Counted from the stretch's first letter, positions 11,478 to 26,860 are shown. The stretch is 64,000 bases of DNA from an uncultured Acidimicrobiales bacterium (GCA_963700755.1 CAVOYW010000005.1:732026-796025), one strand, 5' to 3'. Notes: generated from the letters alone by a model not told the origin. Numbers and translations: made by a program.

Positions 11478-12385
11478 GTGATGGCACTGCGAGTCGACTA
11501 CCTCGCTGCGGGAGACGGGCAACAACCTCGTCCGCAACCCCTCGCTGACCATCGCCACGGTGCTGACCGTGGCGGTGTCGCTTTCGCTGCTCGGCGCCGC
11601 CCTCGTGATCCGTCAGGGCGTCGAGGGACTCAACACGCGGTTCAAGGACGACGTCGAGTTCATCATCTGGGTCGACCCCGAGGCATCGACCGAGCAGCTC
11701 GAGTCGCTCGACCGCGCCCTGGCCGATTCGCCGGGGGTCAAGGACTACCGCTACATCAACACCGAGGAGACCTGGGCCGAGTTCCAGGAGTTCTGGTCGA
11801 GTCACCCGAGGTGCTCGAAGCCGTCACGCCCGAGCAGCTTCCGACGTCGTATCCGGGTGGTGCCCCAGATCGCCGATCTCGCCGTGGTCCGGTCGCTCGG
11901 TGACGCGTTCGAGGGCCTCCCCGGGGTTCGCAAGATCGACTTCGCCGGCGAAGCGATCGAACGGGTCGAACGAGTTCACCAGCGCCGCGTCGAGCATCAT
12001 GTTCGCTCGCCGCGCATCGCGGCCGCCGTCGCGTCCGGTCTGCTCATGTACAACTCGATCCGTACGGCACTCTTCGCCCGACGGCGTGAGATCGAGGTGA
12101 TGCGTCTGGTGGGCGCGACCAACACTCGTTCATCCGGCTGCCGTTCATGTTCGAAGGGCTGGCGCAGGGCCTCATCGGTGCCGGCGTCTCGCACCCTCGC
12201 GGTGTTCGGTTTCAATCGCTTGATCCGCAACGCACTCGACCGAGACCGACTTCCGGCTGTTCGACAGCTTCGCCCTCGACGTCGGCCAGCTCGTTCCCGG
12301 TCGCCCTGATCCTGCTGGCGTGTGGGCGCCGTGATCGGTGCGCTCGGCTCCGGCATCGCCGTCGTCGCGTTACCTCGACGCCTGA
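11478..12385 (+). pseudogene. ftsX: cell division permease FtsX, about 10 frame changes
   Basis: Segments [47 protein letters not shown]..., SPEVLEAVTPEQLPTSY, RVVPQIADLAVVRSLGD..., NSIRTALFARRREIEVMRLVGATN, FIRLPFMFEGLAQGLIGAGVS and ...RYLDA* alternate among all three + frames. Confidence 0.8.
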
Positions 12386-12398
12386 CCGACCGGCCGGG

Positions 12399-12702
12399 TC
12401 AGAGCTGACGCACCGCGGCAGTGGTCGCCGCGGCCAGCGACGACCACCAGCCAGAACGGCGCCCGCAGAGAGGCGGCGATTCCGCCGAGGGCGACGCCGG
12501 CCGCTCGGGCGTCGACCACCAGCGTCCCGCCGGTGTCGAACGTCGCCGTCGACGATCAAGGCCGCGAGCAGGGCGGGCGGGAGCAGGCGACCGAGCGCCG
12601 ACGACGGTGGGGGAGCCGCCACCCGGGCGAACCCGAACATGCCGGCCGCCTTTGAAGGCGTAGGCCCCGGCGGCCAGGAGGAGCAGGGCCGTCCAGCTCA
12701 TC
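12399..12702 (-). pseudogene. azlD: branched-chain amino acid transport protein AzlD, frameshifted
   Basis: MSWTALLLLAAGAYAFK | AAGMFGFARVAAPPPSSALGRLLPPALLAALIVD | TFDTGGTLVVDARAAGVALGGIAASLRAPFWLVVV | LAAATTAAVRQL* across three minus frames. Its ATG overlaps the azlC stop (ATGA). Confidence 0.65.
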
Positions 12703-13400
12703 GGGACGCCATGGCGGTCACGAGCGGTCCTCGGGAAGGGTCCGAAGACACCGAAGGCGACGACGGCGCCGACGGCCGCGGCCAGCACCGGGATCCCGGG
12801 CCGGGTGAAGGGGATGCGACGCAGCGGCGATCCCGGCGCCGGCGACGGCGGCCAGCAGTCCGGAACGGTGTCGCAACGCCGGCATCATCAGGGCGATGAA
12901 CCCGGCCGGGAACGCGGCATCGAGACCGAGCGCAGTCGGATCGCCGATGGCGTCGCCGCCGAGGGCACCGATCAGCGGTGCCCAGGTTCCAGAAGACGAA
13001 GACCGAGATCCCGCCGGACCAGAACGCCGCGTGCCGATCGCTCGGCTCGGGTTGGGCCAGCCCGAGCGCGGTCGACTCGTCGATCGTCAGATGGGCAGCC
13101 AGGGCTCGTCTACCCCGACTGGTCCCGGCCGGCATGAGCTTCGACACGCTGATGCCGTAGAACCCGTTGCGGGCAGCGAGGAGCAGCGCCGAGGCCAGCG
13201 CGGCGGCCGGGCCGCCCCCGGCGCCGATGACACTGGCGGCGGTGAACTGGGAGGCGCCGGTGAAGACCAGCAGTCGACATGGCGACGGCCTGGAGAACGC
13301 TCAGTCCACTCGTGACGGCGAGGACGCCGAAGGCCAGACCGAACACGCCGACGGCCAGTCCGAGCACGATGGCATCGCGGTGGTAGGGCCGGTCCATCAC
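12698..13400 (-). pseudogene. azlC: AzlC family branched-chain amino acid permease component, frameshifted
   Basis: MMDRPYHRDAIVLGLAVGVFGLAFGVLAVTSGLSVLQAVAMS... then ...SKLMPAGTSRGRRALAAHLTIDESTALGLAQPEP...FWSGGISVFVFWNLGT... in other minus frames. Confidence 0.65.
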
Positions 13401-13508
13401 TGGTGGAGGCTACGGCTCCGACCCGGCCTTGCGCGCCGTTTCGTGATGGCGTCGCCCAGGGTCGCTGCGCTATGTTCGGCGACGGCCCGCAACACAGGAG
13501 AAGCGATC

Positions 13509-19923: not shown

Positions 19924-20744
19924 GCACGACGTCCACCGAGCAGGATCGGTTGGCCGATTTCGTGTGCGAGCCGTTCTCGGCTCGCAACATCACCAAGGAC
20001 GTCTATCGGGCGGGTTCGGGTCCGGCCGTGGTGGTGCTCACCGAGATGCCCGGGATCACGCCCGAGGTCGCCGACTTCGCCCGTCGGCTGATCGCCGAGG
20101 GCTTCTCGGTCACGCTCCCGGATCTCTTCGGTGAGGCCGGGCGCCCGTTCTCGAATGGTTATGTCATCCGGTCACTGGTCAAGGGATGCGTGTCGAAGGA
20201 GTTCGTTGCATTCGCCCGGAACACCACGTCACCGATCACGTCCTGGCTGCGTGAGCTCGTGGCCGACGCCCATCGGCGGGCCGGCGGTGATGCGGTGTCG
20301 AACGGTGTCGGTGTGGTCGGGATGTGTTTCACCGGTGGGTTCGCCCTCGCCCTGACCGTCGATCCGCTGGTCCGGGTGCCGGTGATGAGCCAGCCCTCCC
20401 TGCCCCTCGGACCCGGTGCCGAACGACGCCGGGATCTCGGGCTCGATCCCGAAGACCTGGCCGTGGTCAAACGGCGGGTCGAGGACGAGGATCTTTGTGT
20501 CGTCGGTCTTCGCTTCACCGGTGACCCGATGGTGTCCACCGCCCGCTTCGAGCGACTCCGAGAGGAGTTCGGCGACCGCTTCGCCGCCGTCGAGATCCGC
20601 AGCGGGAAGGAGGCCCCGGATGGGCACGGTCCCCGGGCTCACTCGGTGCTCACCACCGAATACGACCCGACACCGGGAAGCCCGACGAGGCTCGCCTACG
20701 AGTTGGTCGTCGAACACCTCGGCCGGCTGCGCCCGCCGACCTGA
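19920..20744 (+). CDS. dienelactone hydrolase family protein
   Basis: GTG overlaps the upstream stop (GTGA). VVVLTEMPGITPEVADFARRLIAEGFSVTLPDLF and GVVGMCFTGGFAL (nucleophile Cys). Confidence 0.8.
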   Translation: MSTTSTEQDRLADFVCEPFSARNITKDVYRAGSGPAVVVLTEMPGITPEVADFARRLIAEGFSVTLPDLFGEAGRPFSNGYVIRSLVKGCVSKEFVAFARNTTSPITSWLRELVADAHRRAGGDAVSNGVGVVGMCFTGGFALALTVDPLVRVPVMSQPSLPLGPGAERRRDLGLDPEDLAVVKRRVEDEDLCVVGLRFTGDPMVSTARFERLREEFGDRFAAVEIRSGKEAPDGHGPRAHSVLTTEYDPTPGSPTRLAYELVVEHLGRLRPPT

Positions 20745-20766
20745 CGGCGGCGATCGCGCTCGCCGT

Positions 20767-21296
20767 TCAGAGGATCTGGGCGAGCAGGCTGCCGACGCCG
20801 AACCCGACGGCGGCCACGGCGGCGGTGAGGGCGGCGGTGAGGGCGGCGGGAGGGGGGGGACGGCGGCGCAGGTCAGGCCCCGGAACGTCGGTCGCGGGCC
20901 GATGCTGCGCGGCGGGTGATCGGTGACGGTGTCGACGCGGACAGGTGCGGCGGTCGGTCCGGCGGGAAGGGAACGCTGCGGTGGGGCCGGCTCGGGCGCG
21001 GTCAGGCGGTCGAGGTCGTCGGGGCGGATCTCGTCGTCGGCGATGGCGGCAAGCAGCCGGCGAGCAGCGGACTGGAGCGCTCGACCTTCGTCCGACAGCA
21101 GGGTTTCGTCGACGGCGGGTTCGTGATGGGCCAGGACGGCACGGGCCGCTTCGGCCCGTTGGCCGGGCTCGATCGCCGTGACGACGTGATCGACGTCGTC
21201 GAGCAGTGCCTGTACCGATCGGTGGGCGATGTCGTTCCGGGTCAGGGCCACGGCGAGCGCCGAGTCGTTGGTGGTGTCGAAGGTCAGCCGCTGCAC
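20767..21296 (-). pseudogene. hypothetical tail-anchored protein, fourth gene of the HTTM operon (frame discontinuity about 20,850-20,905)
   Basis: GTG 21296 lies 11 nt after the HTTM stop. VQRLTFDTTNDSALAVALTRNDIAHRSVQALLDDVDH... reads well, then the C-terminal ...DLRRRPPPPAALTAALTAAVAAVGFGVGSLLAQIL* (RRR + TM helix) is in another frame. A G8 run lies at 20852-20859. Confidence 0.45.
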
Positions 21297-21307
21297 GAGG
21301 CAAGAAA

Positions 21308-22096
21308 CTATCGACCGGAGACGCGCTGATGGGGGATGCCCGTCTCGATGTCCCCACGCACCGGGCCGAACCCGGGTGGGAGCGTGAGGTGGGCCACCAT
21401 CGCCAGTCCGAACGCCACGAGACCGAGATCCCAGCCGAGCACCGCGATGATCGAGAGATGGAAGGCCAGACCGAGCGTGATCGACAGGGGACGCCATGAC
21501 CACGACCACAGGGCGGTTGCCAGGATCATCTCGGTGATCACGGTGAAGACGGCGACGACGGCCAGCGTACGCATCGGCAGGTCTCGGACCATCCGGACGC
21601 CCAGCGGACTCTGTGCCGCCCGCACCAGGATGTCGCCCGACCACCAGTCGGGACGGAGCTTCGACAGCGCGGCGAACAGGTAGACACTCGAGGTCTGTGC
21701 CCGCACGGTGAGGGCCAGGGCCGCCGGGTCGGTCCCGTGGAAGCCGGCCGTCAGGGCCCCGAGCACCCCGATCAGGACCGTGTGGTTGCTGTATCCCTGC
21801 TGATCGACGACGAGATCGAACAGTGAGACCGTGGCGACGACGGCCGCGGCGATCCGGACCCGGGCGCCCAGGACCAACGAAATCGCCGCCGCGAGCCCGA
21901 AGGCGATGAGACCGACGGCGATGGCCCGCGGGAGGACGGGCGTCGGGAACCCGAGACCGAGCCAACGTACGGGGACCCGGAAGCGACCGGGTTCGGTCCA
22001 GGCCCAAACCAGATCGATTCGATCGAGGCGATCGACCAGCGCAGCCAGGCCGACCACGGCCACGAAGCGGCGGTCCGGGGCAACGCGGGGTGTCAT
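21308..22096 (-). CDS. HTTM-domain (vitamin K-dependent gamma-carboxylase-like) integral membrane protein
   Basis: 262 aa from ATG 22096. Multi-TM. QQGYSNHTVLIGVL and SVYLFAALSKLRPDWWSGD resemble the HTTM core. The ATG overlaps the upstream stop (ATGA). Confidence 0.65.
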   Translation of the reverse strand: MTPRVAPDRRFVAVVGLAALVDRLDRIDLVWAWTEPGRFRVPVRWLGLGFPTPVLPRAIAVGLIAFGLAAAISLVLGARVRIAAAVVATVSLFDLVVDQQGYSNHTVLIGVLGALTAGFHGTDPAALALTVRAQTSSVYLFAALSKLRPDWWSGDILVRAAQSPLGVRMVRDLPMRTLAVVAVFTVITEMILATALWSWSWRPLSITLGLAFHLSIIAVLGWDLGLVAFGLAMVAHLTLPPGFGPVRGDIETGIPHQRVSGR

Positions 22097-22420
22097 CGAC
22101 AGAGCCGCTCGGAACGCCGTGGGCCGTAGGCCAGGCGCACGACCACGGCACCATCGACCGACGAGCACAGATGACGGTCGAGGGCCTCGGCGAGGTCGAG
22201 TTCGACCCGGGGTCGGACGAGCAATTCGTCGACGTCGACCGGGCAGCGTGGAGCCGTCGACGAGTTCGACCTCGGCCCACCAGCGGTCGCCCCGTTCGGA
22301 GTACATCTGCCACCCGAACGGCTCGGGCCGGGGACCGTCGCCCCGGCTGACCAGCAGGGTCGCCGGCACCGCGACCTGCACGAGCATGATGATGCCGATC
22401 GCGAGGGTGCGCCGCCTCAT
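22093..22420 (-). pseudogene. small signal-anchored protein with FGWQMYS motif (one frameshift about 22,240)
   Basis: MRRRTLAIGIIMLVQVAVPATLLVSRGDGPRPEPFGWQMYSERGDRWWAEVELVDGSTLP | VDVDELLVRPRVELDLAEALDRHLCSSVDGAVVVRLAYGPRRSERLCR*. The 328-nt length is not a multiple of 3. ATGA overlaps at both ends. Confidence 0.55.
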
Positions 22421-23550
22421 GTCGGTCGTCGATAGACGCCTTCGCCGGCCCACCGGCGAATTCGCACCAGATCGTTGACCAGCAACAGGGTGTCGCGGGC
22501 GATGCGGACCGTCGACTGGCCACTGTTGCGCACCGAGACGGGCACCTCCTTGAGTGAGCGACGATCGAGCTCGGCGATGCAGAAGATCTCGACGTCGAAG
22601 CCGAATCGGTCGATCCGGCAGCGGCGGAACATCGAGTGACCGACGTCGGACCGGAAGCCCTTGATGCCGCATTGGGTGTCGCGGAAGTGGCCGAGCAGCA
22701 CGAGATGGGTCAGTGCGTTGATGACCCGACCGCCGAGCTGACGGATTCGCCGAGCCCGGACCAGGGTGGTCGTCTCCTCGTGTTGGCGACTCCCGACGAC
22801 GATGTCCCAGCCGGCCTCGAGTTCTCGCATGATCTCGGCGACGGCTTCGGGCGGATAGGCGAGATCGGCGTCGGTGAACACCACACTGCGGCCCGACGCG
22901 GCCAACACACCCGTGCGAACGGCGGCCCCCTTGCCCCGATTCCGGTCGAGTCGGATGACCCGAGCGCCGGCGGCGGCGGCCCGGTCGGCGGTGTCGTCGA
23001 TCGATCCGTCGTCGACGACGATGATCTCGAGGTCGTCGCCCACGGTGTCGGACAGGGTCGTGCGGAGCTCGCTGACCGAATCGGCGATGCGCCGGCCCTC
23101 GTTGTATGCGGGCACGACCACGGTCAGTCTCAGATCGCCCGGCGCCGGTGGCTGCGCCACGCAATCGGACAGGGCCGTGCGGACCTCGGTGAACAGCACC
23201 CAGCGATAGCTGAGCCAGCGGGCACCGGCCGCGAACGCGACCGCAACGAGTTTGGCGGCCCACCGGGTGGCACCGGCCCAGTCGAGGAACAGCACGAGGG
23301 CGAGGTCGATCGCTCCCGCAACGAGGGCCATCATCCCGAAGGTGGCCGGATGGCGCACCCAGCGGGCGCTCGGATCGTTCCCGAACGTGGCGAACCGGTT
23401 GACCAGATACGAGAAGACCGCCGCCGTTGCGAGGGCCACGAGGTCGGCGACCACCAGCGACGACCGGTCGACCAGCACGAGGAACAGGGCGACGTCGATC
23501 GTGGTGGTGAGGAGCCCGACGATGACGAATGTCCGGAGTCTTCGTCGCAT
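22417..23550 (-). CDS. GtrA-like domain fused to family 2 glycosyltransferase (polyprenyl-phosphate sugar synthase-like)
   Basis: 377 aa. The N-terminal ~125 aa form a 4-TM GtrA-like segment (FVIVGLLTTTIDVALF...YLVNRFATF...). The GT2 core follows: VVVPAYNEGRRI, IIVVDDGSIDDT, FTDADL, QCGIKGF. Confidence 0.85.
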   Translation of the reverse strand: MRRRLRTFVIVGLLTTTIDVALFLVLVDRSSLVVADLVALATAAVFSYLVNRFATFGNDPSARWVRHPATFGMMALVAGAIDLALVLFLDWAGATRWAAKLVAVAFAAGARWLSYRWVLFTEVRTALSDCVAQPPAPGDLRLTVVVPAYNEGRRIADSVSELRTTLSDTVGDDLEIIVVDDGSIDDTADRAAAAGARVIRLDRNRGKGAAVRTGVLAASGRSVVFTDADLAYPPEAVAEIMRELEAGWDIVVGSRQHEETTTLVRARRIRQLGGRVINALTHLVLLGHFRDTQCGIKGFRSDVGHSMFRRCRIDRFGFDVEIFCIAELDRRSLKEVPVSVRNSGQSTVRIARDTLLLVNDLVRIRRWAGEGVYRRPT

Positions 23551-23606
23551 GCCACCTCGTTCTCGCGGGTTCCAGCCGGGACGGCATCGAACCTACCAGC
23601 GGTGCG

Positions 23607-23890
23607 GGATGGCCACGTCCGGCCGGTGGGTCAGCGGCTCGCCGGGACGACCGCAACGACATCCAGCAGGGTTTCGCCAGCAATGAGATCGACACGTACG
23701 AGCACGACATCGAGTGGAAGGACGGGGCAGCGGCCCCGGTCGACGACCTGCTCGTCGACTGGCTCGGGTTCCGGGACTATCCGGCCATGATGACGGTGCG
23801 GGCCGACAAGCTCGAGGAACTGAGCCCGTGTCTCGAGCTCTTCGTGCCGATGCAGGCCCAGGCCTGGGTCGACTACCTGGAGGCCCGACG
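23607..23890 (+). CDS. hypothetical protein fragment, boundaries unresolved
   Basis: The only protein-like reading of 23,650-23,890 is + strand ...FASNEIDTYEHDIEWKDGAAAPVDDLLVDWLGFRDYPAMMTVRADKLEELSPCLELFVPMQAQAWVDYLEA. There is no convincing start, and no stop in any + frame before it runs into the convergent VOC remnant. Confidence 0.3.
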
Positions 23891-23903
23891 CCGATCACCC
23901 CGC

Positions 23904-24134
23904 TCATCGGGATCGACGATCGGCATCGCAGTCCAGATCCAGGTGCATCGAGCCCGGTCGTGTGGCCCCGCGTTGCCGGCCGAGCCGACGATCACCGGAC
24001 GGGTCGGACAGCACGATCCAGCGATCGACGTCCTCGCGCTCGGTCTCGACCAGGCCCAGGGTCGATCGCCAGAAGTCGGCACGTCGGTCCGGATTCGACG
24101 AATCCCGCGTGACGAGGTCGAATCGGCTGGTCAT
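23904..24134 (-). pseudogene. VOC/glyoxalase-like domain protein, truncated
   Basis: MTSRFDLVTRDSSNPDRRADFWRSTLGLVETEREDVDRWIVLSDPSGDRRLG.QRG...GSMHLDLDC matches the first two-thirds of glyoxalase-like domain proteins. It stops after 76 aa and the C-terminal beta-strands are missing. Confidence 0.45.
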
Positions 24135-24294
24135 GGGCACAAGTTGGCCGGGGGTCGGACGCGACTGCCGAGCCGATCGGGGCGGTGGGGTAATTCGGGT
24201 TCGCCGGATGCCGAAGTTGCCGGGGGCTGTCCCGACCGGGCCGGCCTGCCGGAGCAATCCCGGCGACCTCGTGAGACAAAGGATCTGTGGCCAG

Positions 24295-25972
24295 GTGCGA
24301 CCGACGATCTCGCTGACCAGACTCGGGCGGCTGCTGGTGGCCGGTGGCCTCGGCGTTCTGTGGACGGCCGGCCCATTGGCTCGACCCGGATCGGCCGACC
24401 CCGTTGCCGGCGACGTCGTGGTCTCGGCCGAGGTCTACACGACATCGACCAACTGCTCGAACACCGCCGAGCTCCGGGATGCCACCGATGCGCTCGACAT
24501 CGAATGGCGTTCGCTGGTCGCCGCGGATCGGTACGTGGTCGGTGAGATGGGTCTGGACACCGAGGCCGATCCGACTCCGAATCCGACGTCGATCACGTTC
24601 GGCGCGCTCGATCTGGTCGTTGACGTGTCGAAGTACGACGTGTCGCCGGACGTTGCGGAGTCGACCGATCCCGAATCGTGGGGTGTGGTCGACGTGGCGT
24701 CTCCGGCGGATCCCACGTTGGCCCGATCCGAGACACTTCAGGACTGTGCCCCACGACCCTCCCGGGCCTACGCCTCCGAGGCCGATGATCGACCCGTCCA
24801 GTGGAACGCCACGGCCGGCGACGGCGACTCGTTGGATGCGGTCCTGTTCGAGTTCGATTCTCCGATCTCTGCATTCGGTGCCTGGTTCGGTGACGTCGAG
24901 ACCCGGACCGACGGTGAGGGCCGGCCGGCCCTCGTGAAACTCTTCGACGCCGACGGAAACGTGCTGACGGTCGAGGCCCTCACCCCCGATCGGGCCGCCC
25001 CCCTCGTCGACGACCCGAGCGGGCGCCGCGAATGTGGCGGCCGCCAGGATTCGGACGCGTTGGCCTGTGGCAACCAGGCAACCCGCTTCATCGGATTCGC
25101 CACCGCCGAACCCGTCGTGGTCCGCATGATGGTGATCGTCGGTGACGACGACTCCTGTGCCGACGGCGGCGAATGTGACGGTTCGTCCGAGCACCTCTCC
25201 TTCGTCGCCCCCCAGGTCGCGGTCTTCGACACCCCACCGACGACATCGACCTCCCGCTCGGCCGAGACGACGGTCCCGTCTTCGACCACGTCGCCGCCGA
25301 CGACCGTCTCGACGGCACCGGTCTCGACAGTCCCGGTCTTGATGGTCCCGAGCTCGACGGCCGCCCCGACCACGGTTGTTCCCACCACGGTTGTTCCGAC
25401 CACGGCCGTCGTGGTCTCGACGGTCCAGGGCTCGACCATCCCGGTCTCGACGGCCGCCCCGACCACGGTTGTTCCCACCACGGTTGTTCCCACCACGGCC
25501 GTCCTGGTCTCGACGGTCCAGGGCTCGACCATCCCGGTCTCGACGGCCCACCTCGACCACGGCCGTCACTCCGACCACGGCCACCTCGACCGCGAACGCC
25601 CCCACCACCACGACCGCTCCCGCAACGACGACGAGTGTGTTGCCACTGGTCCCGCTGGTGCAGAGCACGACGACGGCTTCGGTGCCGGGACTGTTCCTGC
25701 CGGCGTCGGACCTCGACCCGATCGATGCCGGCGAGCTGGTCGACGGGGCCCCAGTCGACGGCGCCCCGGTCGATGCGACGGCGCCCATCGCGATCGAGGT
25801 CGCTCCGGCGTCAACCGTTGTCGCCGGACTGAGCGCCGGTGCCGCACCCGACGAACTGCCGCTCACCGGATCGTCATCGACCTTGTCGATCACGCTCGGA
25901 CTCGGCCTGATCTCCTGCGGGACGGTGCTCATGTCGGCGTCGCGTCGCTCCGGAGCCACGCCGGCGAGCTGA
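24295..25972 (+). pseudogene. LPXTG-anchored cell-surface protein with Thr/Pro-rich repeats (one frameshift about 25,546)
   Basis: Signal peptide VRPTISLTRLGRLLVAGGLGVLWTAGPLARPGSA|DP, an unknown ~300-aa Cys-containing domain, then a T/P/V-rich stalk. After the frame switch the C-terminus reads ...DELPLTGSSSTLSITLGLGLISCGTVLMSASRRSG (LPLTG + TM + basic tail). Confidence 0.75.
25354..25539 (+). repeat. 2 x 93-bp near-identical tandem repeat inside the surface-protein gene
   Basis: The unit tcgacggccgccccgaccacggttgttcccaccacggttgttcc.accacggccgtc.tggtctcgacggtccagggctcgaccatcccggtc occurs at 25354 and 25447 with 2 mismatches. A third, diverged copy starts at 25540. Encodes STAAPTTVVPTTVVPTTAV.VSTVQGSTIPV. 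Confidence 0.9.
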
Positions 25973-25975
25973 GCG

Positions 25976-26860
25976 CTACCGGGCTGGGCGCCCGATGGCG
26001 GCGAAGTAGTTCGCGGCCAGGAGTGCCTTGGTCGCCGGAGCGATGAGGTCGCCGAAGCGCAGGGCCTCGTCGTTGCCGACCGCCGCCCACAGCCGAACGG
26101 AGTCACGGTTGGTCGCGGCCTCGATCTCGGCTCGGGAATCCCGTCCGTGATCGGTGAGGTCACCCTGGTCGTCGAGCCAGCCGCGTTCGGTCAGCCGGTC
26201 GACGGCTGCGGTCCAATCGACGTCGGACCAGGCCCTCGACTTCTGGACGACACCTCGGCGGCCGGTCATGACCTCTGACACCACGGTGCACTCGGCGCCG
26301 TCGAGTGGTGCCGTGAGGAGCAGCGCGATGTGGCCGTCGCCTCGCCATTCGCGTATCACGGTCACCAGTTGCCAGAGGCGAAGCAGGCGATCCGATGCGA
26401 GGTCACCGGTCTCGAGGTCGGCGAGCGCGGCAGCGTTGCCGGCGGCCAGGGGGCGGCCCGACCAGTTCAGCGAACCGACGACGCGTTCGGCGATGTCGAG
26501 CGCCGCGTCGATGTCGTCGTCGGTCATGGCCGGCCGGACGACGGCGTCGAGGACCTGCTTGGCCCCTCGCCAGCGCGCGGTCTGGAGGTCTCGGGCCGAG
26601 ATCCTGTCCCACATCCCGTCCATCGACGGCACCACCAGATCGGGACTGAAGTTGTAGAACGTGGCGATGACCATCTCGGTTGGGAGCGGCCCCATCGCTG
26701 CGGTCCGCGAGCCGAAGTAGCCGCTGCGGCCCTCGACGCCCAGCTTCGCGTAGTGCTCGGCCGCTTCGGGTGAGAAATAGATGAAGGCGTGGAGCAGGGT
26801 GGTCTGGTCGTGGAGTTTGGCCACGGTCTCGACCGAGGGCAGGGAAGCGGGGTTCGTCAT
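25976..26860 (-). CDS. conserved-looking hypothetical protein
   Basis: 294 aa from ATG 26860 (MTNPASLPSVETVAKLHDQTTLLHAFIYFSPEAAEHYAKLGVEGRSGYFGSRTAAMGP...). Balanced composition, no motif I can name. The upstream 280 codons of the ORF look like non-coding read-through. Confidence 0.6.
   Translation of the reverse strand: MTNPASLPSVETVAKLHDQTTLLHAFIYFSPEAAEHYAKLGVEGRSGYFGSRTAAMGPLPTEMVIATFYNFSPDLVVPSMDGMWDRISARDLQTARWRGAKQVLDAVVRPAMTDDDIDAALDIAERVVGSLNWSGRPLAAGNAAALADLETGDLASDRLLRLWQLVTVIREWRGDGHIALLLTAPLDGAECTVVSEVMTGRRGVVQKSRAWSDVDWTAAVDRLTERGWLDDQGDLTDHGRDSRAEIEAATNRDSVRLWAAVGNDEALRFGDLIAPATKALLAANYFAAIGRPAR

What the first reader, a model, noticed from the sequence alone, without database searches (positions are those of the whole stretch)
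20767..23550. Translationally coupled GtrA-GT2 / FGWQMYS small protein / HTTM membrane protein / tail-anchored protein operon: a split, permuted gamma-carboxylase-like module with a lipid-sugar synthase
Four same-strand genes are packed with ATGA stop/start overlaps at 22417-22420 and 22093-22096, and an 11-nt gap at 21297-21307.
- Gene 1 fuses a GtrA-like 4-TM segment N-terminally to a GT2 polyprenyl-phosphate glycosyltransferase core.
- Gene 3 is a bare HTTM-type membrane domain (SVYLFAALSKLRPDWWSG).
- Gene 2 is about 109 aa and signal-anchored. Its FGWQMYS motif recalls the Y-S-W-D-M-M-V-H-S motif that, from my recollection of the human GGCX sequence, follows the HTTM domain in vitamin K-dependent carboxylases. 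Here that piece would be a separate gene placed upstream of the membrane domain.
- Gene 4 is an acidic/Ala-rich protein ending in RRR plus one TM helix.

I know of no characterised bacterial system combining these parts. The arrangement suggests an envelope-modification machine: a lipid-linked sugar donor plus an HTTM-family transferase or oxidoreductase.
Basis: partly seen in the sequence, partly recalled or inferred. Interest (0 to 1): 0.7.

Follow-up and report, generated by a model that had tools for sequence, protein, structure and literature searches.

The report
Split vitamin-K-carboxylase-like membrane enzyme pair
Two adjacent genes encode a membrane enzyme related to the human vitamin K-dependent carboxylase, split into a catalytic subunit and a small, unnamed partner that carries the lid of the quinone pocket; the pair is widespread in soil bacteria, but the neighbouring sugar-transferase gene is not part of it and the partner gene is frame-broken here.

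Summary
Four same-strand coding regions, both ATGA overlaps and the 11-nt gap are real. Pfam confirms GtrA+GT2 (gene 1) and HTTM (gene 3).

The conserved unit is gene 2 + gene 3. A gene 2 homologue lies directly upstream of a short HTTM gene in 23 of 31 loci from at least six phyla. The family has at least 414 clusters, all "hypothetical", with no Pfam model. Where it is absent, six loci carry long HTTM proteins with the VKGC lumenal domain in cis. Profile comparison aligns gene 2's TM helix and FGWQMYS onto that domain, i.e. GGCX TM9 and loop LL9 (Y397-S-W399-D-M401-M402-V403). Gene 3 keeps the K218, N159/H160, D263 and F299 equivalents.

So the "split, permuted carboxylase-like module" is supported. 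The link to the lipid-sugar synthase is not: a syntenic relative has gene 2-HTTM-gene 4 without gene 1, and no other locus has it. SdpA/SdpB and a 2026 DUF5819-HTTM prediction are precedents. Substrate and chemistry remain unknown.

The parts
22417..23550 (-). Gene 1: intact 377-aa protein, an N-terminal GtrA-like 4-TM domain fused to a GT2 (Dpm1/ArnC-type) polyprenyl-phosphate glycosyltransferase. It is a neighbour specific to this lineage, not part of the conserved module.
   Evidence: Pfam GtrA_DPMS_TM E 2e-15 and Glycos_transf_2 E 1.5e-28. NCBIfam equivalogs (AglJ, PpgS, ArnC and others) all score far below their cut-offs. It is 93% identical to L001, dN/dS 0.07. It is absent from L040 and from the other loci.
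22093..22420 (-). Gene 2: small signal-anchored partner subunit (108 aa when repaired). It has a TM helix with Q15/P19, a FGWQMYS loop, and a small beta-alpha-beta domain with two invariant Cys (C85, C107). In the window it is broken by a +1 nt frameshift.
   Evidence: Two frames. Intact homologue P0003/L001, 74% identity. Family alignment and invariant residues. AF2 model pLDDT 88. hhalign to the VKGC lumenal domain of long forms, E 8e-5 and 3e-4, with controls well below.
22239..22247 (-). Approximate site of the single extra base that splits gene 2 (around a CCC run at 22241-22243).
   Evidence: tblastn pieces end at 22247 and resume at 22239. DNA alignment with L001 shows one extra base here. 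Deleting one C restores a 108-aa ORF that ends at the ATGA.
21308..22096 (-). Gene 3: intact 262-aa HTTM-only membrane protein, the catalytic subunit. It corresponds to GGCX residues about 50-318 (TM1-TM8) and lacks TM9 and the lumenal domain.
   Evidence: Pfam HTTM, 51.8 bits. The family profile hits human GGCX 50-318, E 1e-27. Invariant H105, Q134, Y139, K146, E189, W197, H213 and F229. No indels relative to L001.
20767..21296 (-). Gene 4: tail-anchored protein with a helical, acidic, Cys-free cytoplasmic domain, a Pro-rich linker, RRR and a C-terminal TM helix. It is conserved with the pair only in this Acidimicrobiales-like lineage. In the window it is frame-disrupted near 20890-20910.
   Evidence: Frames. 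Intact 165-aa homologue in L001 and a homologue in L040 (E 1.6e-21) directly after HTTM. No Pfam or NCBIfam family. AF2 gives a helical bundle, pLDDT 66.
21308..22420 (-). Uninterrupted 370-codon ORF created by the gene 2 frameshift: gene 2 residues 1-59, then 48 Arg-rich out-of-frame residues, then HTTM.
   Evidence: The GC3 frame plot shows that the linker is not coding in this frame.

Best explanation
Genes 2 and 3 encode the two subunits of a split HTTM enzyme, a bacterial relative of the vitamin K-dependent carboxylase.

Roles of the two subunits:
- Gene 3 supplies the membrane catalytic core, equivalent to GGCX TM1-TM8.
- Gene 2 supplies in trans what GGCX and long bacterial HTTM proteins carry in cis. 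This is the last TM helix (TM9) and the conserved loop LL9, whose Trp-x-Met caps the quinone ring and lines the substrate pocket. A much reduced extracytoplasmic domain, probably held by a disulfide, follows.
- The gene order (small subunit first, usually overlapping the HTTM start by 4-10 nt) is permuted relative to the domain order in fused enzymes.

Inferred mechanism:
- The heterodimer sits in the cytoplasmic membrane with its active site facing outward and binds menaquinol.
- The K146 amine deprotonates the quinol, and O2 converts it to an epoxide with release of a strong base.
- That base abstracts a proton from an unknown extracytoplasmic substrate. Because the CO2-stacking Phe (F229) is conserved, the likely outcome is carboxylation.

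Shown versus inferred:
- Shown: homology, residue conservation, and gene-pair conservation and its complementarity with fused forms.
- Inferred: complex formation, cofactor, chemistry and substrate.

Other genes:
- Gene 4 is a third component specific to this lineage, of unknown role.
- Gene 1 (GtrA-GT2) is a recent neighbour, translationally coupled here but not part of the conserved unit.
- In this particular genome genes 2 and 4 are frame-disrupted, so the module may be inactive or the assembly may be wrong.
For: 1. Gene 3:
- HTTM in Pfam.
- The profile of its family hits human GGCX 50-318 (E 1e-27).
- N104/H105 align with N159/H160, K146 with K218, W151 with W223, E189 with D263 and F229 with F299.
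- The roles of those GGCX residues are taken from PMC12647623.

2. Gene-pair conservation:
- A gene 2 homologue sits immediately upstream, on the same strand, of a short HTTM gene in 23 of 31 genome loci (HMM E 1e-25 to 1e-40).
- These loci come from Actinomycetota, Chloroflexota, Acidobacteriota, Gemmatimonadota, Zixibacteria and others.
- The same arrangement is seen in L033-L037 and L040.

3. Complementarity with fused forms:
- Six loci without gene 2 have 450-470-aa HTTM proteins with Pfam VKGC_lumenal_dom at about 300-450.
- The gene 2 HMM gives weak hits at exactly that place in five of them.

4. Profile-profile comparison:
- hhalign of the gene 2 family against that domain scores 31-32 (E 8e-5 and 3e-4) over 62 columns.
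- The aligned stretch covers the TM helix (Q..VP), F-x-W-x-M and the first strand.
- Controls score 9-10 (reversed) and at most 18.8 (30 block-shuffled).
- The same domain profile aligns to GGCX 361-505 (E 2e-14). This places W37/M39 on W399/M401.
- In GGCX, Met401 stacks on the naphthoquinone ring and its backbone contacts K218.

5. W37, M39, R71 and C85 are invariant, and C107 nearly so, in 120 family members.

6. Topology fits: gene 2 has an N-terminal RRR and then a TM helix, like TM9, which runs from the cytoplasm to the lumen.

7. Precedent:
- AF3 predicts that DUF5819 plus HTTM-DCC1 form a GGCX-like complex in which the partner's TM helix replaces a GGCX helix.
- sdpA-sdpB and yitP-yitO show the same gene order.
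Against: - No Pfam model, including VKGC_lumenal_dom and DUF5819, hits gene 2. Only 1 of 24 family members reaches E 0.15 for PF22777.
- The gene 2 profile does not retrieve GGCX from PDB sequences directly.
- Foldseek of the gene 2 model against PDB finds nothing significant.
- The hhalign probability is only 42-62% and covers the N-terminal 60% of the protein.
- The complex could not be modelled.
- No biochemical function is known for any short HTTM protein.
- Many relatives carry a DCC1-like thiol-disulfide oxidoreductase domain, which points to redox chemistry that the window's version lacks.
- In the window itself gene 2 is frameshifted.
- dN/dS of genes 2-4 (0.21-0.32) is higher than that of most neighbours.
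Confidence: 0.62

Rival explanations
1. All four genes form one envelope-modification machine: gene 1 makes and flips a polyprenyl-phosphate sugar, and the HTTM pair uses or modifies that lipid-linked sugar or its glycan product.
For: - The gene 1 stop overlaps the gene 2 start (ATGA) in both the window and L001.
- In Chloroflexota, Zixibacteria and related loci, the pair (there HTTM-DCC1) lies among several GT87-like membrane glycosyltransferase paralogues. One of these often sits directly upstream of gene 2.
- A flavin amine oxidase and a spermine-synthase-like membrane protein are also in those clusters.
- GDP-mannose dehydratase, MurJ or a DegT-type aminotransferase appear near a few loci.
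Against: - L040 is syntenic with the window and has gene 2-HTTM-gene 4 without gene 1.
- No gene 1 homologue adjoins the pair in any other locus.
- Neighbours in L003, L009, L018 and L023 are unrelated housekeeping genes.
- The GT87 loci are probably phylogenetically related, so they are not independent counts.
- Gene 1 evolves under far stronger constraint (dN/dS 0.07) than genes 2-4.
Confidence: 0.12
2. The pair is a quinone-linked thiol/disulfide oxidoreductase (functionally VKOR/DsbB- or MauE/DoxX-like), not a carboxylase. It would pass electrons between membrane quinone and cysteine pairs, with gene 2's conserved Cys pair as substrate or relay.
For: - 8 of 18 HTTM genes in the surveyed loci, and many of the closest 150 relatives, are fused to a DCC1-like thiol-disulfide oxidoreductase domain.
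- Sulfitobacter has the DCC1-like domain as a separate downstream gene.
- Long HTTM proteins give weak MauE and DoxX_3 hits.
- C85 is invariant and C107 nearly so in gene 2.
Against: - The window, L001 and L040 versions have no DCC1 domain, and there is none elsewhere in the window.
- The DCC1 domain would be cytoplasmic, whereas gene 2's cysteines are outside.
- The K218, D263 and F299 equivalents, specific to the epoxidase/carboxylase mechanism, are invariant.
- A DCC1 fusion fits equally well with recycling of the quinone epoxide.
Confidence: 0.18
3. An SdpABC-like peptide or toxin maturation system: gene 2 = SdpA-like, gene 3 = SdpB-like, and gene 4 = the precursor whose C-terminal hydrophobic segment is processed.
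For: - The gene order is the same as in sdpABC and yitPOM: small partner, HTTM, third gene.
- Gene 4 stays directly downstream of HTTM in three genomes, down to 44% HTTM identity.
- Gene 4 has a C-terminal hydrophobic segment, as SdpC and YitM do.
- 9 of 32 short HTTM relatives hit the SdpB model weakly.
Against: - Gene 4 has no signal peptide. The RRR before its TM helix predicts a cytoplasmic bulk, on the side away from the HTTM active site.
- No SdpI/SdpR-like immunity genes are nearby.
- Gene 2 and its family do not hit the SdpA model, and the window HTTM does not hit SdpB.
- Gene 4 is absent from all loci outside this lineage.
Confidence: 0.08
4. In this genome the locus is a decaying remnant. 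The frameshifts in genes 2 and 4 are real, so no functional module is made here, whatever it did ancestrally.
For: - Two of the four genes are frame-disrupted.
- Nearby AzlC carries three 1-nt insertions and a 63-nt 3' deletion, and AzlD five 1-nt indels, none in long homopolymers.
- The ABC transporter next to gene 1 in L001 is deleted here, leaving remnants at 23655-23879 and 23916-24134.
- About 11 kb of other shared genes have no frameshift, so the indels are clustered.
- dN/dS is raised for genes 2-4.
Against: - Gene 1 and HTTM are intact, with no indel in 1.9 kb.
- dN/dS stays well below 1.
- The source is probably a long-read MAG (813-kb contig), where single-base errors occur.
- The gene 2 insertion is next to a CCC run.
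- This reading concerns the state of the locus, not its nature, and is compatible with the main explanation.
Confidence: 0.4

Closest known systems
[quoted passage not shown]
   Same: HTTM core with equivalents of N159/H160, K218, W223, D263 and F299. A following TM helix (Q374..P378 aligns with Q15..P19) and the LL9 motif Y-S-W-D-M-M-V, which aligns with F-G-W-Q-M-Y-S.
   Different: - One 758-aa chain, against two proteins of 262 and 108 aa.
- GGCX has clamp A/B jelly-roll domains, a C-terminal domain and propeptide binding. Gene 2 has only about 70 extracytoplasmic residues.
- Y395, which binds the Glu carboxylate, is not conserved (E33, or A in the family consensus).
- The substrate here is unknown.
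Long bacterial HTTM + VKGC_lumenal_dom proteins (e.g. L028, L031 Pedobacter, L025 Entotheonella) and MloH of malonomycin biosynthesis
   Same: Same two modules. The gene 2 profile aligns to the first third of their PF22777 domain. They occur in loci that lack a gene 2 homologue.
   Different: The modules are fused, in the order HTTM then TM9-lumenal domain. The lumenal domain is about 150 aa with no conserved Cys pair. MloH is the only one with a demonstrated reaction, alpha-carboxylation of an Asp residue (cited).
DUF5819 protein + HTTM-DCC1 pair (AF3-predicted complex, bioRxiv 10.64898/2026.08.19.745780)
   Same: An N-terminal TM helix plus an extracytoplasmic domain, encoded next to an HTTM gene. 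The helix is predicted to replace a GGCX TM helix and the domain to sit where the clamp is. Many gene 2 partners are also HTTM-DCC1 fusions.
   Different: DUF5819 is about 160 aa, against about 85 aa here. No gene 2 family member hits the DUF5819 model at E up to 1. I had no DUF5819 sequences, so I could not test for distant homology.
Bacillus subtilis SdpA/SdpB (and YitP/YitO)
   Same: A small partner gene upstream of an HTTM membrane protein, with a third gene downstream. Both are required genetically for maturation of a secreted product.
   Different: The SdpA and SdpB NCBIfam models are not matched by the window proteins. There is no signal-peptide precursor and no immunity genes here.
GtrA/GtrB-type and PpgS (Rv3631)/Rv3632-type polyprenyl-phosphate sugar synthases (for gene 1)
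   Same: A GT2 Dpm1/ArnC-like catalytic domain together with a GtrA-like 4-TM domain.
   Different: The two are fused in one chain. No equivalog cut-off is reached, so the sugar and the acceptor are unknown. No GT-C transferase was identified next to it.

Membership tests
HTTM domain (Pfam PF05090), gene 3 | Score above the Pfam gathering threshold | tested here: met
   51.8 bits against 27.7, E 1.1e-13. The family profile hits human GGCX 50-318 at E 1e-27.
HTTM domain (Pfam PF05090), gene 3 | Catalytic Lys (GGCX K218) and the N159/H160, D263 and F299 equivalents | tested here: met
   K146, N104/H105, E189 and F229 by the alignment. K146, H105, E189 and F229 are invariant in 32 relatives. The H213-H287 equivalence is ambiguous in that alignment.
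VKGC lumenal domain (Pfam PF22777), gene 2 | Score above the Pfam gathering threshold | tested here: not met
   No hit for gene 2. One of 24 family members reaches E 0.15.
VKGC lumenal domain (Pfam PF22777), gene 2 | Homology of the TM9 helix plus the LL9 W-x-M motif | tested here: met
   hhalign E 7.7e-5 and 2.7e-4 in the same register. Reversed and shuffled controls score at most 18.8, against 31-32. Five weak HMM hits fall at the same place in long forms.
VKGC lumenal domain (Pfam PF22777), gene 2 | Full domain of about 150 aa (clamp-type fold) | tested here: not met
   Gene 2 has about 70 residues after the motif. The model is beta-beta-alpha-beta-beta. Foldseek against PDB finds no GGCX match.
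Vitamin K-dependent gamma-carboxylase (enzyme) | Quinol/O2-dependent epoxidation coupled to carboxylation of a defined substrate | not testable with these tools
   Only residue conservation is available.
SdpA/SdpB antimicrobial peptide system (TIGR04034 / TIGR04033) | Match to the NCBIfam models | tested here: not met
   Gene 2 and 24 relatives give no SdpA hit at E up to 1. The window HTTM gives no SdpB hit, while 9 of 32 relatives hit weakly, best E 3.6e-7.
DUF5819 (HTTM partner family) | Match to the Pfam model | tested here: not met
   DUF5819 is not among the families hit by any of 24 members at E up to 1.
DUF5819 (HTTM partner family) | Architecture: N-terminal TM helix plus extracytoplasmic domain, encoded adjacent to HTTM(-DCC1) | tested here: met
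   description of DUF5819.
Polyprenyl-phosphate glycosyltransferase, GT2 with GtrA domain (gene 1) | GT2 and GtrA Pfam domains above threshold | tested here: met
   100.3 bits and 57.5 bits.
Polyprenyl-phosphate glycosyltransferase, GT2 with GtrA domain (gene 1) | Assignment to a specific equivalog (PpgS, ArnC, AglJ, GpgS and others) | tested here: not met
   Best score 81.9 bits against a cut-off of 325. All hits are far below their cut-offs.
Four-gene operon as a conserved unit | Co-location of all four genes in related genomes | tested here: not met
   All four are together only in L001/L002. L040 has genes 2, 3 and 4 without gene 1. Twenty-two other loci have only genes 2 and 3.
Four-gene operon as a conserved unit | Co-transcription | not testable with these tools
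   Consensus promoter and terminator scans found nothing in 20500-24000.

The most novel reading that the evidence does not exclude
The gene 2-HTTM pair is a minimal two-subunit, menaquinone- and O2-dependent base-generating enzyme. Its natural substrate would be not a peptide but a cell-envelope lipid-linked sugar or glycan, for example carboxylation or epimerisation of a polyprenyl-phosphate sugar or its product. This would explain the independent adjacency to a GtrA-GT2 synthase in Acidimicrobiales and to clusters of GT87-like transferases in Chloroflexota and Zixibacteria.
Probability: 0.1. Interest if true: 0.85.

Novelty: new variant of a known kind. Interest (0 to 1): 0.45.

Why it matters
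- **Open question.** HTTM enzymes are common in bacteria, but only one (MloH) has a known reaction.
- **A partner family with visible homology.** This small-subunit family is large (at least 414 clusters), unnamed and absent from Pfam. Its homology to the GGCX TM9-LL9 segment can be seen at sequence level.
- **General rule suggested.** Short HTTM proteins appear not to be autonomous. They seem to receive the quinone-pocket lid in trans.
- **Practical value.** A 262 + 108 aa pair is the smallest version of the vitamin K carboxylase architecture seen in this survey. It would be a convenient system for studying the chemistry and for finding bacterial substrates.
- **Annotation.** These "hypothetical proteins" can be named as HTTM partner subunits.
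- **Correction to the finding.** The glycosyltransferase link is not conserved, and two of the four genes are out of frame in this sequence.

Tried and rejected
- **Direct family searches with gene 2.** Pfam, NCBIfam and PDB sequences gave nothing.
- **Complex modelling.**
  - Only window sequences and proteins from the search for homologous proteins may be submitted.
  - MAFFT misaligned gene 2 homologues onto the HTTM part of the fused ORF (A11).
  - Model coordinates are not exposed.
  - I therefore abandoned this.
- **Natural gene 2-HTTM fusions.** There were none among the 150 closest HTTM representatives.
- **Gene 4.** It has no family. The single-sequence model is only moderately confident, and Foldseek returned generic helical bundles.
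- **First genome scan.** The scan was repeated with six sequences.
- **Promoter and terminator scans.** These were empty.
- **Programmed +1 frameshift at CCC-G in gene 2.** I considered this and rejected it as unlikely. The close relative is in frame, no stop or rare codon follows, and other genes nearby carry unprogrammed indels.
- **A DCC1-like gene elsewhere in the window.** None was found.

Full report
**1. What is in the sequence**

On the minus strand, gene 1 (22417-23550, 377 aa) and gene 3 (21308-22096, 262 aa) are intact ORFs. The sequence ATGA occurs at 22420-22417 and at 22096-22093. Gene 3 ends with TAG at 21310-21308, and a GTG at 21296 follows an 11-nt gap.

Pfam gives GtrA_DPMS_TM (7-120) and Glycos_transf_2 (143-302) for gene 1. 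It gives HTTM (51.8 bits, cut-off 27.7) for gene 3. NCBIfam places gene 1 among Dpm1/ArnC/AglJ/PpgS-like enzymes but far below every equivalog cut-off.

The spans are 328 and 530 nt.

- A three-frame translation and a GC3 frame plot show a frame change inside each.
- Gene 2 residues 1-58 (TM helix, FGWQMYS, first strand) are in the frame of gene 3.
- The remainder (VDVDELLVRPRVELD...ERLCR) is in the next frame and ends at the ATGA.
- Removing one base at the CCC run at 22241-22243 restores a 108-aa protein.
- Because the first frame stays open, the window contains a 370-codon ORF that fuses half of gene 2 to HTTM through 48 Arg-rich out-of-frame residues.
- The conserved N-terminal part of gene 4 (to about 20907) and its RRR+TM tail (stop at 20767) are likewise in different frames.

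**2. The close relative and the state of the locus**

The HTTM protein has one 71%-identical homologue, and gene 2 one 74%-identical 108-aa homologue. Both lie on a 1.3-Mb contig of an uncultured Acidimicrobiales MAG (L001/L002).

There all four genes are intact (377, 108, 262 and 165 aa) and the flanks are syntenic. This validates the repaired gene models and shows that the window carries indels.

- DNA alignment finds no indel in gene 1 or HTTM and one extra base in gene 2.
- Several indels fall in the Pro-rich linker of gene 4.
- Nearby AzlC has three 1-nt insertions plus a 3' deletion, and AzlD has five 1-nt indels.
- About 11 kb of other shared genes have none.
- The ABC transporter that flanks gene 1 in L001 is deleted in the window.
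- dN/dS against L001 is 0.07 for gene 1 and 0.30, 0.32 and 0.21 for genes 2, 3 and 4. Most neighbours lie between 0.03 and 0.14.

Clustered indels favour real gene decay. The probable long-read origin leaves assembly error open. I put about 0.4 on real inactivation.

**3. The conserved unit is gene 2 + gene 3**

A profile search of 1.84 billion representatives finds only 515 relatives of this HTTM type. They are mostly 240-300 aa. A subset of 370-400 aa carries a C-terminal DCC1-like thiol-disulfide oxidoreductase domain.

A genome scan returned 31 loci.

- In 23 of them, a gene 2 homologue (family HMM E 1e-25 to 1e-40) lies directly upstream on the same strand, usually overlapping the HTTM start by a few bases.
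- These loci come from Actinomycetota, Acidimicrobiia, Chloroflexota, Acidobacteriota, Thermoanaerobaculia, Gemmatimonadota and Zixibacteria.
- Of the remaining eight, six have long HTTM proteins.
- One is cut at the contig end.
- One (Pirellulales) has a different TM-anchored upstream partner.

Gene 1 and gene 4 homologues occur only in L001/L002.

The gene 2 family has at least 414 clusters at 90% identity. All are 'hypothetical protein' with no Pfam domain. Its invariant residues are G36, W37, M39, R71 and C85; Q15, P19 and C107 are nearly invariant.

**4. What gene 2 is**

The six long HTTM proteins carry Pfam VKGC_lumenal_dom (PF22777) at about 300-450. That domain begins with a TM helix (..YLxIQxxVPLR..), followed by RF[AS]WRVM.

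- The gene 2 HMM gives weak hits at exactly this place in five of them.
- hhalign of the gene 2 family against these domains gives E 7.7e-5 (24 sequences) and 2.7e-4 (120 sequences). The register is the same over 62 columns.
- Reversed and block-shuffled controls score 9-19, against 31-32 for the real comparison.
- The long-form profile aligns to human GGCX 361-505 (E 2e-14).

Chaining the alignments puts Q15/P19 on Q374/P378 in TM9. It puts F35-G-W37-Q-M39-Y-S41 on Y397-S-W399-D-M401-M402-V403, which is loop LL9.

In the GGCX structures (PMC12647623):

- LL9 covers the vitamin K pocket and forms part of the Leu-Glu pocket.
- Met401 stacks on the naphthoquinone ring.
- The backbone of Met401 contacts K218 and the bound bicarbonate.

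The AF2 model of gene 2 (pLDDT 88) has a TM helix, a short helix at the motif and a beta-beta-alpha-beta-beta domain. The direct tests failed: Pfam, PDB sequence search and Foldseek. Homology therefore rests on profile-profile comparison, context and motif. It covers only the first 60% of the protein.

**5. What gene 3 keeps**

The family profile aligns to GGCX 50-318 (E 1e-27). The equivalences are:

| Window gene 3 | Human GGCX |
|---|---|
| N104/H105 | N159/H160 |
| K146 | K218 |
| W151 | W223 |
| E189 | D263 |
| F229 | F299 |

H105, K146, E189 and F229 are invariant in 32 relatives. Gene 3 stops where the cytoplasmic loop before TM9 begins in GGCX. This is consistent with gene 2 supplying TM9.

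**6. Context and the other two genes**

A metagenome scan found L040 (HTTM 44% identical). It has the same flanks as the window: the ABC transporter on one side, epoxide hydrolase and acyl-CoA dehydrogenase on the other. It carries gene 2, HTTM and a gene 4 homologue (E 1.6e-21) but no GT2-GtrA. So gene 4 belongs with the pair in this lineage, and gene 1 is a later insertion or was lost in L040.

Gene 4 has a helical, Cys-free cytoplasmic domain with conserved His residues, a disordered linker and a tail anchor. No family or fold match was found.

Contexts elsewhere vary.

- In Chloroflexota and Zixibacteria the pair (with DCC1) sits among several GT87-like paralogues, a flavin amine oxidase and a spermine-synthase-like protein.
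- In one Thermoanaerobaculia locus it sits next to a radical-SAM/PqqD cluster.
- In other Actinomycetota it sits next to housekeeping genes.
- A Sulfitobacter plasmid has hypothetical-HTTM-DCC1 as three genes. An archaeal Halobaculum plasmid has hypothetical + HTTM-DCC1. Both partners show TM + W-x-[MK]-F-S, which the gene 2 HMM does not detect.

**7. Comparison with what is known**

The idea of an HTTM enzyme completed in trans is not new.

- sdpA/sdpB and yitP/yitO are genetic precedents.
- A 2026 preprint predicts that DUF5819 proteins form a GGCX-like complex with adjacent HTTM-DCC1 proteins, with MloH as the fused counterpart.

The following is new here:

- a distinct, much smaller and widespread partner family, for which sequence-level homology to TM9-LL9 can be shown;
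- a DCC1-less three-gene version (gene 2, HTTM, gene 4).

**8. Verdict**

- Novelty: a new variant of a known kind.
- Interest is moderate. The substrate, the chemistry and even the integrity of the locus in this genome are unresolved.

Noticed in passing
window 12380-13410 (minus strand): The AzlC/AzlD homologues are broken. AzlC has three single-base insertions and lacks the last 63 nt. AzlD has five single-base indels relative to L001. None of these lies in a long homopolymer.
   Followed up: partly
window 23550-24313: Relative to L001, the ABC transporter genes (ATPase, permease, 409-aa protein) and most of a glyoxalase gene upstream of gene 1 are missing. Only remnants remain, at 23655-23879 and 23916-24134.
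   Followed up: partly
window 24313-26046 (+), and L001 2400-4347 (-): A large secreted protein with Thr/Pro/Val-rich repeats changes reading frame after the repeats. The LPLTG sorting signal, TM helix and basic tail are in another frame (window ORF 25376-25972). The same frame change is seen in L001, so it is either a shared assembly problem in the repeats or a genuine conserved feature.
   Followed up: partly
L033-L035, L010, L011, L013, L016, L020, L022, L004: In Chloroflexota, Limnocylindria and Zixibacteria loci, the gene 2 + HTTM-DCC1 pair is embedded in a recurrent cluster. The cluster holds three to five GT87-like paralogues of about 290 aa, a flavin amine oxidase and a 660-aa spermine-synthase-like membrane protein.
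   Followed up: partly
L036/L037 2299-5941: In a Thermoanaerobaculia MAG, the pair is divergently adjacent to a RiPP-like set: radical SAM, PqqD, an ScmC/HprK-like protein, a transglutaminase-core protein and NTP_transf_5.
   Followed up: no
L039 2228-3848 (Sulfitobacter indolifex plasmid) and L038 1551-3588 (Halobaculum plasmid): The same architecture occurs outside the gene 2 family. In Sulfitobacter a 155-aa hypothetical protein (TM, WLREWVMFSG, LC...C) precedes HTTM and a separate DCC1 gene. In an archaeon a 254-aa hypothetical protein (FQVSVIPL...TWHKFSS) precedes an HTTM-DCC1 fusion annotated only as DUF393.
   Followed up: partly
L027 4499-5428 (Pirellulales MAG): The HTTM gene is preceded by a 310-aa TM-anchored protein with a GYFFFAPNPGP motif and no Pfam hit. 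It is possibly another class of HTTM partner.
   Followed up: no
L040 4588-4986: The gene 2 homologue of this relative carries an inserted VAAVEVAAVEVAAVQVVSVEV repeat before the C-terminal Cys.
   Followed up: no
short HTTM family (alignment A2, columns about 146-165): The window's subgroup (P0001, P0002, P0004 and a few others) lacks the 'GAA-S-DAR-RG' loop that most relatives and GGCX (WSVDGLLNAHRRN) have between the YSNH helix and the catalytic-Lys helix.
   Followed up: no
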